Program-made: the position numbers | Sequence record: MT225100 | DNA: 50,953 nt | Reading direction: 5' to 3' (one strand) | From: Escherichia phage Lys8385Vzw | Shown here: positions 36,001-39,000 of the stretch, piece after piece | How the letters are laid out: the number at the start of each line of letters is the position of its first letter | How positions within the stretch are numbered: the stretch's first letter is position 1

Positions 36001-39000
36001 GTCAAAGAATCAGTCAATGAACCAATAGCTGTTGGTGCATCTGCTGATGAGTCTGTGCGAGTTCGTTCAAACCGACCGGAATACTCTCCGGAGTTTGAGC
36101 AGGCATGGCTGGCATATCCCAAACGTGCTGGTGGCAATTCAAAATCTGCAGCCTTCAAAGCCTGGAAAGCCCGTTTGAATGAGGGGGTAAACCCCGAAAC
36201 CATGCTGGAAGGTGTGAAACGCTACGCGGGCTGGGTATCTGCGATGGGTAACAGCGGCACACAATTTGTGAAACAGGCTGTCACGTTCTTTGGTCCGGAT
36301 CGTCATTTCGAAGAATCCTGGGAAGTTCCTGCGGTATCTGCAGCCGGACGTGAGGACCCGTACTTCAAAGCCAGTTACGACAACGTGGACTACAGCCAGA
36401 TCCCGGCAGGATTCAGGGGGTGATCATGAGTCTTTTGAATGACGTTCAGAAATTCATTGAAGCCCATCCGGGGTGTACTTCCGGAGACATTGCGGATGCT
36501 TTTGCAGGTTACTCACGGCAGCGCGTTCTGCAGTATGCAAGCAAGTTACGTCAGAGTGGGCGTGTGGCTCACCGTTGTGAAGGAGATACACGCAGACATT
36601 TCCCGCGCCTGACTGAGAGAGCGAAGGAGCTGGAACCACAACCAGTTCGTGAAACCAGACCTGTGCGCAATTTCTATGTCGGCACTAACGATCCCCGGGT
36701 AATTTTGTGCCTGACCCGCCAGGCTGAAGAACTGGAGTCCAGGGGCTTATACCGTCGTGCTGCAACCGTGTGGATGGCGGCATTCCGTGAAAGCCACTCC
36801 CAGTCAGAACGAAACAATTTTCTGGCGCGCCGTGAGCGGTGCTTACGGAAAAGCAGCAAGCGCGCTGTATCGGGTGATGAGTGGTATCTGTCAGGGAATT
36901 ACGTGGGGGCTTAATGAGTAATAAATATTGCCAGGCGTTGGTGGAACTGCGGAACAAACCAGCCCATGAACTGAAGGAAGTGGGCGATCAGTGGCGCACG
37001 CCGGACAACATTTTCTGGGGAATTAACACCTTGTTTGGTCCGTTTGTTCTGGATCTGTTCACTGACGGTGATAACGCCAAATGTGCTGCGTATTACACGG
37101 CGGAAGACAACGCGCTGGCGCATGACTGGTCAGAACGTCTTGCGGAGCTTAAAGGGGCTGCCTTTGGTAATCCCCCATACAGCCGCGCCAGTCAGCATGA
37201 GGGGCAATACATCACCGGCATGCGTTACATCATGAAACATGCCAGTGCCATGCGTGATAAGGGGGGGCGCTATGTTTTCCTGATCAAAGCTGCCACCAGC
37301 GAAGTGTGGTGGCCGGAAGATGCGGACCATATTGCTTTTATTCGAGGGCGTATTGGTTTTGAACTGCCTGCCTGGTTTATCCCGAAAGACGAGAAGCAGG
37401 TACCGACAGGCGCTTTCTTCGCTGGTGCTATTGCTGTTTTCGACAAGACCTGGAAGGGACCGGCAATCAGCTACATCGGGCGCGATGAACTTGAGGCATG
37501 TGGTGAGGCCTTTCTGGCGCAGGTTCGCCAGCAGGCAGAAAAACTGGTCAGGGAGATGGCGGCATGACGACGTTAACTCAATGCCAGCAGCAGGTGCTGG
37601 ATATGCTGATTTCTTATCAGAAAGAACGTGGCTTCCCGCCAACCAATCAGGAGGTGGCAACCATGCTGGGATACCGTTCAGTGAATGCAGCGGTGGAGCA
37701 TCTTCGCGCACTGGAGAAAAAAGGCGTCATCACGATAAAGCGTGGTGTGGCCCGGGGGATCACGCTTCATACCGCAGTGAAGGACGACGACAGCGAAGCG
37801 GTCGGGATTATCCGCTCACTGCTTGCCGGTGAGGAAAACGCAAGGCTGCGTGCAACTCACTGGTTACATGAGAGAGGCCTGAAAGTATGAAGCTGATCCT
37901 GCCTTTCCCGCCCAGCGTGAACACGTACTGGCGACACCCCAACAAAGGGGCATTTGCTGGTAAGAGCCTGATAAGCGCGGCGGGGCGAAAATTTCAGAGC
38001 GCGGCGTGTGCAGCAATAGTTGAGCAGTTACGTCGTCTGCCAAAACCAACGTCGGCACCTGCTTCAGTGGAGATCGTGTTGTTTCCTCCTGATAACAGGA
38101 TCCGCGATCTGGACAACTATAACAAGGCACTGTTTGACGCCCTGACACACGCGGGTGTGTGGGAAGACGACAGCCAGGTGAAAAGAATGCTGGTGGAGTG
38201 GGGACCGGTTATCCCGGAAGGGAAGGTCGAGATCACTATCAGTAAGTACGAGAAAACGGCGGGTGCAGCCGCCTGATTAAGAGGAGAAACGAAGTATGAA
38301 TAATCTGATGGTCATTGATGGTATTGAAGTTCGTCGTGATGCTTATGGGCGTTACAGCCTGAACGATCTGCATCGCGCAGCAGTAGCATCTGGTGCAAAT
38401 GCCAGAACCAAGGAGCCAGGAAAGTTTCTTTCCAGCCAACAAACTGTTGAGCTTGTTCATGAATTGACCAACACCCAGAATTTGGGTGTTGACCCGGTGA
38501 GTGTGATTCATGGGGGAAATGAACGGGGAACGTATGTCTGTAAGGAACTGGTGTATGCCTATGCAATGTGGATCAGCCCGTCATTCCATCTGAAGGTGAT
38601 CCGTACTTTCGACATGGTAACCAGCGCACCGGAAAAATTATCCGGGCAGGCTGCTGACAAGATGCAGGCTGGTGTGATTCTGCTGGACTTTATGCGTCGG
38701 GAGTTAAACCTGTCTAACTCATCTGTGCTTGGTGCCTGTCAGAAACTCCAGGAGGCTGTTGGCTTACCGAATCTGGCACCGCGCTATGCCATTGATGCTC
38801 CTGCTGACGCGCCTGATGGCTCAAGTCGCCCCACGCTGTCGCTGAGTGCACTGCTGAAGCAATATGGTATCCGCCTGACGGCTAATCAGGCATATCACCA
38901 GATGGCGAAGCTGGGGATCGTTGAACAACGCGAACGATACAGCCGTACCGCGATTAACAACATCAAAAAATTCTGGTCGCTGACGGCGAAAGGCTGCATG

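What the first reader, a model, noticed from the sequence alone, without database searches (positions are those of the whole stretch)
36914..37567. Orphan N6-adenine methyltransferase in the nin-like region
NPPY-motif methyltransferase with no adjacent restriction endonuclease. Likely an anti-restriction or epigenetic function protecting phage DNA.
Basis: partly seen in the sequence, partly recalled or inferred. Interest (0 to 1): 0.3.

Follow-up and report, generated by a model that had tools for sequence, protein, structure and literature searches.

The report
Common prophage Dam-family adenine methyltransferase gene
This is an ordinary, already annotated phage gene for a small stand-alone DNA adenine methyltransferase; near-identical DNA (95% or more) is found in about 39% of complete E. 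coli genomes, and its exact target sequence has been inferred (probably GATC) but never measured.

Summary
Window 36914..37567 (+) is a 217-aa ORF with an NPPY motif. It scores far above the curated cut-offs of Pfam PF05869 "Dam" and NCBIfam TIGR01712 "phage N-6-adenine-methyltransferase".

The protein is 100% identical to RefSeq WP_000066917.1 in the Stx1a prophage of E. coli O103 RM8385, and the window is the circularised form of that prophage. DNA at least 95% identical occurs in 2120 of 5426 complete E. coli genomes. K-12 yfdM is a truncated copy, and SfV "dam" is 97% identical.

The gene lies between the replication gene and Q. It is translationally coupled to a PerC/YfdN-like gene upstream and to a LexA-DNA-binding-domain gene and rusA downstream. 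No restriction endonuclease or second methyltransferase is present in the phage, so "orphan" holds.

The characterised family members I could trace methylate GATC: VT2-Sakai Dam and Lactococcus phi93 Dam from papers, HP1 Dam from my own recollection. They are only 24-32% identical to this protein, and this subfamily has its own insertions, so GATC specificity is inferred.

Verdict: already known, low interest.

The parts
36914..37567 (+). Phage N-6-adenine methyltransferase ORF (217 aa), SfV-Dam/YfdM type, PF05869/TIGR01712
   Evidence: It is 100% identical to WP_000066917.1.
36986..37003 (+). N-terminal family motif D-Q-W-R-T-P (aa 25-30). D25, W27 and T29 are invariant across distant family members. 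I take it to be the motif X equivalent.
   Evidence: Alignments. The assignment to motif X is my inference, by analogy with gamma-class enzymes such as M.TaqI.
37049..37054 (+). L46-D47. The aspartate is invariant and is the likely SAM-binding acidic residue (degenerate motif I/II).
   Evidence: Invariant column. The role is inferred.
37169..37180 (+). Catalytic motif IV, N-P-P-Y (aa 86-89)
   Evidence: Read directly from the sequence. P87, P88 and Y89 are invariant and N86 nearly invariant.
37361..37414 (+). Loop at about aa 150-167 (ELPAWFIPKDEKQVPTGA). It is subfamily-specific, 6 residues longer than in VT2 and HP1 Dam, and has low model confidence. It is a candidate DNA-recognition loop.
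   Evidence: Alignments. pLDDT is 57-60 for residues 151-170. The role is inferred.
36420..36914 (+). Upstream PerC/YfdN-like gene. Its stop overlaps the dam start (TAATG), so the two are translationally coupled.
37564..37890 (+). Downstream gene encoding a LexA DNA-binding domain only (108 aa). Its ATG overlaps the dam stop (ATGA). It is context in the same operon, not an obligate partner.
   Evidence: It is absent next to the 70%-identical Dam of Yersinia phage YeP1.
37887..38276 (+). RusA Holliday-junction resolvase, the next gene in the operon (ATGA overlap)
33375..33404 (+). Promoter-like site TTGACA-18-TACATT between cI (32687-33340, minus strand) and cro. It is the probable pR that drives the rightward early operon containing dam.
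   Evidence: a consensus match only.

Best explanation
The ORF encodes a small, single-domain, SAM-dependent DNA N6-adenine methyltransferase of the HP1-Dam/VT2-Dam family (Pfam PF05869, TIGR01712). It has no separate target-recognition domain and no partner endonuclease.

It is transcribed with the replication and nin-type genes in the rightward early operon, probably from pR, and is translationally coupled to its neighbours. It is therefore made mainly during lytic growth or after induction.

The target adenine is flipped into the NPPY pocket and methylated at N6. The target sequence is most likely GATC, as in the characterised relatives.

The probable benefit is to keep rapidly replicating phage DNA fully methylated when the host's own Dam cannot keep pace. 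Progeny DNA would then resist methylation-sensitive GATC-cutting nucleases (MboI/DpnII-type), and would not be treated as hemimethylated or unmethylated DNA by MutH and SeqA.

Shown here: gene, family membership, motifs, fold class, orphan status, operon context, conservation. Inferred: DNA as substrate (strong), GATC (moderate), timing of expression (moderate), selective benefit (weak).
For: Family membership: PF05869 at E=1e-45; TIGR01712 equivalog at 255.6 bits against a 97 cut-off; PADLOC MTase_II full-length match at E=8e-159. The protein is identical to WP_000066917.1, named 'phage N-6-adenine-methyltransferase'.

Motifs: DxWxTP, LD, NPPY and GR..F are conserved across relatives of 24-88% identity.

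Fold: the AlphaFold model (pLDDT 78.9, pTM 0.78) is one alpha/beta domain. Its PDB matches are mostly amino-methyltransferases with N/DPP[YF]-type sites: PCIF1, DrdV, M.TaqI, HsdM and CamA, plus the rRNA methyltransferase KsgA.

DNA as substrate: relatives occur fused to C5-cytosine DNA methylase domains. VT2 Dam targets GATC (PMC6602927) and is PF05869, 31% identical. M.Phi93DAM is PF05869, identical in phage phi93, and was shown by SMRT sequencing and DpnI/DpnII digestion to methylate GATC (PMC4190342).

Operon: the TAATG and ATGA overlaps are read from the sequence. A pR-like promoter is found.

Orphan status.

Selection: about 12 DNA differences from PhiR40_1 with no amino-acid change. DNA at least 95% identical is present in 2120 of 5426 complete E. 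coli genomes.
Against: No enzyme closer than 32% identity has a measured specificity that I could find.

This SfV/YfdM-type subfamily differs from the GATC enzymes by an N-terminal extension, a 5-aa insert and a 10-aa insert flanking NPPYS, and a longer, different loop at aa 150-167. Recognition could therefore differ.

The host already has Dam, so a GATC enzyme looks redundant. The phage itself is GATC-poor (observed/expected 0.63) and has a 10-kb block almost free of GATC.

Expression timing was not measured. The VT2-type dam of phage Phi24B was detected in lysogen cultures (PMC3342100).

The best structural match in the PDB is an RNA cap m6Am methyltransferase, and all PDB matches are weak (TM 0.5 or less).
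Confidence: 0.7

Rival explanations
1. It is a DNA adenine methyltransferase with a different or relaxed specificity (non-GATC or near non-specific). It would then give broad protection against host restriction systems, as other prophage enzymes such as M.EcoGII and Hia5 do.
For: The subfamily has its own insertions and a divergent putative recognition loop compared with the GATC enzymes. It shares only 24-32% identity with any characterised member. A GATC enzyme seems redundant in a Dam+ host. Non-specific prophage adenine methyltransferases do exist (PMC5778455, listed; PMC3299994).
Against: Those non-specific enzymes belong to other families: M.EcoGII is beta class (PMC7544214 abstract), and Hia5 has DPPY and is alpha/Dam-like. 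The characterised PF05869 members come from very distant hosts (E. coli, Lactococcus and, from my own knowledge, Haemophilus HP1) and all target GATC. The VT2-type GATC enzyme is just as 'redundant' in E. coli and is still widespread.
Confidence: 0.2
2. It is really an RNA methyltransferase (rRNA or mRNA) that affects prophage induction. The precedent is the Stx-prophage 'DNA adenine methyltransferase' M.EcoPA8orf6770P, which methylates 16S rRNA together with a partner protein.
For: The best PDB fold match is the cap-specific m6Am RNA methyltransferase PCIF1/CAPAM (6irx, E=2.8e-4), and KsgA also appears. There is precedent in Stx phages (PMC10810198). A small DNA-binding-type protein is translationally coupled downstream.
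Against: The precedent enzyme is MT-A70 type with a DPPW motif, a different family in a different part of the phage. PF05869 members methylate GATC in DNA when expressed alone. Relatives are fused to C5-cytosine DNA methylases. The PDB matches are weak and include as many DNA methyltransferases. The LexA-like neighbour is absent next to a 70%-identical homologue.
Confidence: 0.04
3. It methylates GATC, but the role is regulatory rather than protective. It would adjust the lysis-lysogeny balance, replication origin use or packaging through Dam-sensitive sites.
For: Host Dam is reported to be needed for stable lysogeny of Stx phage 933W, and the Phi24B phage dam is expressed in lysogen cultures (PMC3342100). 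GATC sites are densest in the early-right region, with 16 sites in 37501-40000. The truncated K-12 YfdM was reported to affect propagation of a T1-like phage (bioRxiv 10.1101/413146).
Against: No specific Dam-controlled site was identified here. The Phi24B gene is the VT2 type, not this subfamily. The K-12 YfdM fragment ends at about residue 89 and lacks half of the catalytic domain, so that phenotype cannot be assigned to methylation.
Confidence: 0.15
4. It is an inert relic gene carried along in a conserved prophage module.
For: Truncated copies exist (K-12 yfdM, and many partial clusters). The host Dam may make it dispensable.
Against: The ORF and all motifs are intact. DNA differences between copies are almost all synonymous. 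Full-length copies (80% or more of the query) are kept in 1725 complete genomes.
Confidence: 0.03

Closest known systems
SfV Dam (orf41) / E. coli K-12 YfdM of prophage CPS-53 / RefSeq WP_000066917.1 'phage N-6-adenine-methyltransferase'
   Same: It is the same gene. The protein is 100% identical to WP_000066917.1. The DNA is 97% identical to SfV and SfII dam. K-12 yfdM matches the first 267 nt at 96%. The PerC/YfdN-Dam-LexA-like-RusA neighbourhood is the same.
   Different: Nothing of substance. K-12 YfdM is a truncated remnant. None of these copies has a measured specificity that I could find.
M.EcoVT2Dam (VT2-Sakai orf32, also in 933W-type Stx2 phages)
   Same: Same Pfam family (PF05869). 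It is also an orphan in the nin region of a lambdoid Stx phage, with the same motifs. It targets GATC according to PMC6602927.
   Different: Only 31% identical. It is 175 aa rather than 217 aa, lacks the N-terminal extension, the inserts around NPPYS and the long loop, and lies between ninB and ninE rather than between perC-like and lexA-like genes.
M.Phi93DAM (Lactococcus 936-type phage phi93)
   Same: PF05869 member with NPPY as the only recognisable classical motif. It is a phage orphan. It was shown to methylate GATC and to protect DNA from DpnII.
   Different: It is 140 aa and 32% identical over 58% of the query. It lies between the terminase genes of a virulent Gram-positive phage. It ends just after the loop that is extended in the window protein.
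Haemophilus phage HP1 Dam (orf13)
   Same: Founding member of the family. It is a small enzyme without a target-recognition domain in the early operon of a temperate phage, and its motifs align. GATC specificity is from my own knowledge (Piekarowicz and Bujnicki 1999), not checked here.
   Different: 24% identical, 173 aa, from a P2-like phage.
Classical Dam (E. coli Dam, T4 Dam, DpnM; Pfam PF02086, alpha class)
   Same: Probably the same chemistry and probably the same target (m6A at GATC). Both are orphan enzymes.
   Different: A different family. There is no PF02086 hit and no sequence match to any PDB chain, including EcoDam and T4 Dam. The motif order is gamma-like (X-I-IV), and there is no separate target-recognition domain.

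Membership tests
PF05869 / TIGR01712 phage N-6-adenine-methyltransferase (HP1-Dam/VT2-Dam family) | Profile HMM score above the curated family cut-off | tested here: met
   PF05869 scores 156 bits against a 28.1 cut-off, covering 165 of 169 profile positions. TIGR01712 (equivalog) scores 255.6 bits against 97.05, covering 165 of 165 positions.
PF05869 / TIGR01712 phage N-6-adenine-methyltransferase (HP1-Dam/VT2-Dam family) | Catalytic motif IV (N/D)PPY and the family's N-terminal DxWxTP and LD motifs | tested here: met
   NPPY is at aa 86-89. D25, W27, T29, D47, P87, P88, Y89, R146 and F149 are invariant in an alignment that includes VT2, HP1 and phi93 Dam.
PF05869 / TIGR01712 phage N-6-adenine-methyltransferase (HP1-Dam/VT2-Dam family) | Small single-domain enzyme without a separate target-recognition domain | tested here: met
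   217 aa. The AlphaFold model is one alpha/beta domain plus a C-terminal helix. No second Pfam domain is found.
PF05869 / TIGR01712 phage N-6-adenine-methyltransferase (HP1-Dam/VT2-Dam family) | SAM-dependent formation of m6A in DNA at GATC | not testable with these tools
   Known only for relatives of 24-32% identity. It needs cloning and a methylome or DpnI/DpnII assay.
Type II restriction-modification system | Cognate restriction endonuclease encoded next to the methyltransferase | tested here: not met
   The neighbours are PerC-like, LexA-DNA-binding-domain, RusA, KilA-N, a hypothetical gene, DUF968 and Q. PADLOC finds no REase among ten neighbouring ORFs. The PGAP annotation of the identical prophage lists none.
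Classical alpha-class Dam (PF02086; EcoDam, T4 Dam, DpnM) | Match to the D12-class methyltransferase profile or sequence similarity to EcoDam/T4 Dam | tested here: not met
   Only PF05869 is reported at E<=0.01. phmmer against all PDB chains finds nothing meaningful (best E=0.75).
MT-A70-type prophage methyltransferases (M.EcoGV, M.EcoPA8orf6770P 16S rRNA methyltransferase) | DPPW catalytic motif and MT-A70 domain, with a partner subunit directing RNA methylation | tested here: not met
   The motif here is NPPY and there is no MT-A70 Pfam hit. The published enzyme is described as DPPW/MT-A70 (PMC10810198). The need for a partner was not testable.
Non-specific prophage adenine methyltransferases (M.EcoGII beta class; Hia5/Hin1523 DPPY alpha-like) | Beta-class motif order, or DPPY plus FxGxG with Dam-like fold | tested here: not met
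   The motif order here is X-I-IV with NPPY and no FxGxG. Hia5 is described as DPPY and EcoDam-like, and M.EcoGII as beta class (PMC7544214 abstract).

The most novel reading that the evidence does not exclude
The SfV/YfdM-type subfamily is present in roughly 4 of 10 complete E. coli genomes but, as far as I could find, has never been assayed. It may not be a plain GATC Dam. Its private insertions and enlarged loop (aa 150-167) could give a new or relaxed adenine specificity, or a dependence on the co-translated LexA-like DNA-binding protein. Either would make it a widespread, uncharacterised epigenetic or anti-restriction activity switched on at prophage induction in pathogenic E. coli.
Probability: 0.15. 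Interest if true: 0.45.

Novelty: already known. Interest (0 to 1): 0.1.

Why it matters
It matters little as a discovery. The gene is named in RefSeq, Pfam, NCBIfam, PHROGs and PADLOC, and is among the commonest prophage genes of E. coli and Shigella.

The useful points are practical. First, the specificity of this very common subfamily rests on homology of 32% or less to assayed enzymes, so a one-day cloning and methylome experiment would close a real annotation gap.

Second, PHROG-based pipelines label this gene 'phosphoadenosine phosphosulfate reductase'. That label is an artefact of a fusion family and is wrong for this protein.

Third, any methylome study of induced Stx phages should expect an additional phage-encoded adenine methyltransferase activity.

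Tried and rejected
1. A sequence search of all PDB chains found no meaningful hit, so no template or homologue of known structure is available. The Foldseek matches to PDB are weak (TM 0.5 or less) and support only the fold class.

2. I checked whether the prophage methyltransferases with published specificities are the same protein. They are not.
- M.EcoGV and M.EcoPA8orf6770P are MT-A70/DPPW type.
- M.EcoGII is beta class.
- M.EcoMIV of strain EC958 is PF02086.
- Hia5, Hin1523 and Nma1821 are DPPY Dam-like.

3. I considered that the LexA-like protein downstream might be a specificity subunit, by analogy with the PNB-2 partner of the rRNA methyltransferase. I rejected this as the main reading. 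The 70%-identical Dam of Yersinia phage YeP1 is followed directly by RusA, Chi-like phages show no such annotated neighbour, and phi93 Dam works when cloned alone. Gene calls that fuse Dam to LexA_DNA_bind or PerC are mostly one- or few-member clusters. Because the ORFs overlap by 1 or 4 nt, a single-base frameshift would fuse them, so these fusions are weak evidence.

4. The top PHROG hit is 'PAPS reductase' (phrog_33262). The match covers only the C-terminal Dam half of a 495-position fusion profile. Real PAPS_reduct+Dam fusions exist, but this protein has no such domain.

5. Fang et al. 2012 (the methylome of strain C227-11) could not be retrieved. The Burkholderia P2-like phage paper was irrelevant.

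6. GATC statistics do not reveal the enzyme's target. They show only that the phage is GATC-poor.
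Full report
**Observation.** The ORF listing and the raw sequence show a 217-codon ORF at 36914..37567 on the + strand, ATG to TGA, with AAT CCC CCA TAC (NPPY) at 37169-37180. 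It matches three curated models:
- Pfam PF05869 'DNA N-6-adenine-methyltransferase (Dam)' at E=9.7e-46, 156 bits against a 28.1 cut-off.
- NCBIfam TIGR01712 'phage N-6-adenine-methyltransferase', an equivalog model, at 255.6 bits against 97.05 over the whole profile.
- A PADLOC type II methyltransferase model over all 217 residues, E=8e-159.

**Where the window comes from.** The gene is 100% identical to a gene of E. coli O103 strain RM8385, annotated WP_000066917.1 'phage N-6-adenine-methyltransferase'. BLAST of the whole window against that region shows that the window is the circularised form of an Stx1a prophage integrated at dusA, at 99.5-100% identity over its full length. The PGAP annotation of that prophage can therefore be read onto the window:
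- terminase, head and tail genes at about 230-21000
- effector genes
- integrase at 24174-25271 (minus strand)
- early-left genes (yfdP, yfdQ, yfdR, ead-like, exonuclease)
- cI at 32687-33340 (minus strand), then cro
- a CII/YmfL-like gene and a Rha/Ash gene
- an O-like replication gene at 35605-36423
- a PerC/YfdN-like gene at 36420-36914
- the methyltransferase
- a LexA-DNA-binding-domain protein at 37564-37890
- RusA at 37887-38276
- KilA-N, a hypothetical gene and DUF968
- Q at 40649-41401
- stx1AB from about 41960, then lysis genes

No restriction endonuclease and no second methyltransferase are annotated anywhere in the element. A PADLOC scan of ten neighbouring ORFs gives nothing but the methyltransferase itself and two weak unrelated matches. 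'Orphan' and 'nin-like region' both hold.

**How common it is.** Megablast finds DNA at least 95% identical in 2120 of 5426 complete E. coli genomes, and 1725 of these have at least 80% of the gene. The exact protein is seen on at least 1000 contigs, in a 90%-identity cluster of 3007 members, all named 'phage N-6-adenine-methyltransferase'.

Among phage records it is 97-98% identical in DNA to the 'dam' genes of Shigella phages SfV and SfII, of Stx2c- and Stx2a-converting phages and of several ECOR prophages. E. coli K-12 yfdM in cryptic prophage CPS-53 matches the first 267 nt and is a truncated copy, next to yfdN, the PerC-like gene.

The gene is under purifying selection. PhiR40_1 differs at about 12 of 654 nt yet encodes an identical protein.

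**Family and fold.** An exhaustive HMMER search of 1.84 billion representative proteins finds 1533 relatives at E<=1e-3 and 97 at E<=1e-30.

Alignments with relatives down to 24% identity, including VT2-Sakai Dam, HP1 Dam and Lactococcus phi93 Dam, show the following invariant residues: D25, W27 and T29 (DxWxTP), D47 (LD), P87, P88 and Y89 of NPPY, and R146 and F149. The order N-terminal 'TP' helix, acidic 'LD' strand, NPPY resembles the X-I-IV order of gamma-class amino-methyltransferases such as M.TaqI. That assignment is my inference.

The AlphaFold model built on a 26-sequence alignment is usable (mean pLDDT 78.9, pTM 0.78). It shows a single alpha/beta domain followed by a long C-terminal helix. 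The loop at about residues 150-167 is poorly defined.

No PDB chain is similar in sequence. The fold matches are weak (TM 0.5 or less) but most of the leading ones are amino-methyltransferases: the cap m6Am methyltransferase PCIF1/CAPAM (E=2.8e-4), DrdV, M.TaqI, KsgA, EcoKI and EcoR124I HsdM, and CamA. In the viral structure library the matches are other phage 'DNA N-6-adenine-methyltransferases'.

The protein is thus a member of a known family for which no experimental structure exists.

**Substrate and specificity.** Two lines of evidence support DNA as the substrate.

First, some relatives of 67-75% identity carry a C5-cytosine DNA methylase domain at the N-terminus, and other relatives carry a PAPS-reductase-like domain on either side.

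Second, family members that have been assayed methylate GATC:
- M.EcoVT2Dam, according to PMC6602927. I confirmed that VT2-Sakai orf32 is PF05869 and 31% identical to the window protein.
- M.Phi93DAM of Lactococcus phage phi93, shown by SMRT sequencing and by DpnI/DpnII digestion of plasmid from cells expressing the cloned gene alone (PMC4190342). I confirmed that this 140-aa protein is PF05869 at E=6e-34, and that the identical sequence is in the phi93 record.
- HP1 Dam, the founding member, is GATC-specific from my own knowledge. It aligns at 24% identity.

Three GATC enzymes from Escherichia, Lactococcus and Haemophilus phages make GATC the best guess for the family. The window protein, however, belongs to a distinct SfV/YfdM-type subfamily. 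That subfamily has an N-terminal extension, a 5-residue insert before and a 10-residue insert after NPPYS, and a longer, different loop at 150-167. I found no assay of any member closer than 32% identity. I therefore rate GATC at roughly 0.6-0.65, not as established.

**Prophage methyltransferases that are not this protein.**
- M.EcoGV and the Stx-prophage 16S rRNA methyltransferase M.EcoPA8orf6770P are MT-A70/DPPW enzymes from the early-left region.
- M.EcoGII is beta class.
- M.EcoMIV of EC958 is PF02086.
- Hia5, Hin1523 and Nma1821 are DPPY Dam-like.

None of their specificities can be transferred to this protein.

**Expression and likely role.** The PerC-like stop overlaps the dam start (TAATG). 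The dam stop overlaps the next start (ATGA), and so does the following junction with rusA. All genes from cro to Q are on the + strand, downstream of a good promoter match between cI and cro (TTGACA-18-TACATT at 33375-33404).

By analogy with lambda, the gene is a delayed-early function made with the replication proteins after infection or induction. This is inferred, not measured.

My mechanistic reading is that the phage enzyme supplements the limiting host Dam while phage DNA is replicating rapidly, so that packaged genomes are fully methylated. The general background is my own knowledge: lambda DNA made in Dam+ cells is incompletely methylated, hemimethylated or unmethylated GATC is the substrate of MutH and SeqA, and MboI/DpnII-type enzymes cut only unmethylated GATC. 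It was not tested here.

A regulatory role cannot be excluded. Host Dam is reported to be needed for stable lysogeny of 933W, and the VT2-type dam of Phi24B was detected in lysogen cultures. A report that K-12 YfdM promotes a T1-like phage concerns the truncated fragment and cannot be attributed to methylation.

**Partner hypothesis.** Because the Stx-prophage rRNA methyltransferase needs a partner protein, I asked whether the co-translated LexA-like protein could be a specificity subunit. It is 43% identical to residues 1-86 of host LexA and has no peptidase domain. But the 70%-identical Dam of Yersinia phage YeP1 is followed directly by RusA. Chi-like phages show no such neighbour. The phi93 enzyme was active when cloned alone.

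The 'fusion' gene calls (Dam+LexA_DNA_bind, PerC+Dam) join ORFs that overlap by 1 or 4 nt, which a single-base frameshift would fuse. I keep this idea only as part of the low-probability novel case.

**Verdict.** The finding is real and correctly identified, but it is an already named and very common prophage gene. Interest is low. The only open point is the unmeasured specificity of a protein carried by about 39% of complete E. coli genomes.

Noticed in passing
window 12159-22512: A 10.35-kb block is almost free of GATC, with 2-3 sites against about 41 expected. It includes gaps of 6574 bp (12159-18733) and 3500 bp (19012-22512). It covers the end of the tape-measure gene, tail-tip genes L/K/I/J, lom, the tail fibre gene and the start of the effector region. 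Other 4-bp palindromes there are near expectation. None of 20000 random placements of 140 sites gave a gap that long. GATC-free prophage regions have been reported before (PMC6602927, PMC4659465), but the cause is unexplained, and this phage encodes a probable GATC methylase.
   Followed up: partly
window 37564-37890 (+): A 108-aa protein consists of a LexA N-terminal DNA-binding domain only (PF01726 E=2.9e-19; 43% identical to host LexA residues 1-86) with no S24 autocleavage domain. It is translationally coupled to dam and rusA. It could be an uncleavable LexA mimic acting on SOS boxes during lytic growth. Its function is unknown.
   Followed up: partly
window 36914-37567 (annotation issue): The best PHROG hit is phrog_33262, 'phosphoadenosine phosphosulfate reductase'. 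RefSeq phage records such as NC_003444 (SfV) and NC_049941 carry that product name for this gene. The match is only to the Dam half of a fusion family. The protein has no PAPS-reductase domain, so the name is a propagated mis-annotation.
   Followed up: yes
relatives P0246, P0248, P0253 (C5 methylase+Dam); P0249, P0263 (PAPS_reduct+Dam): Dam domains of this subfamily occur fused to C5-cytosine DNA methylase domains, and to PAPS-reductase-like domains on either side. Homologues of about 80% identity in Cronobacter, Atlantibacter and Enterobacter carry 70-110-aa C-terminal extensions with no Pfam match.
   Followed up: partly
whole window; attP region about 25271-25726: The window is a complete, circularly permuted Stx1a-converting lambdoid phage, 99.5-100% identical to the dusA-integrated prophage of E. 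coli O103 RM8385. It carries stx1A (about 41960-42916) and stx1B, an nleG7 effector gene with a frameshifted EspS gene, and a Panacea-domain gene at 25726-26298 next to the integrase.
   Followed up: partly
window about 6190-6296 versus L004 14714-15094: The window and the RM8385 prophage differ in the portal gene region. The two BLAST segments overlap by about 100 bp in the window while about 380 bp of the RM8385 sequence lies between them. PGAP marks the RM8385 portal gene as frameshifted. This may be a repeat-mediated indel or an assembly difference.
   Followed up: no
window 39646-40635 (+): A DUF968 protein has a weak HNH-nuclease-like C-terminus (PF16784, E=8.5e-6, below its cut-off) just upstream of Q. 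It is not a recognisable restriction enzyme and has no PADLOC hit.
   Followed up: partly
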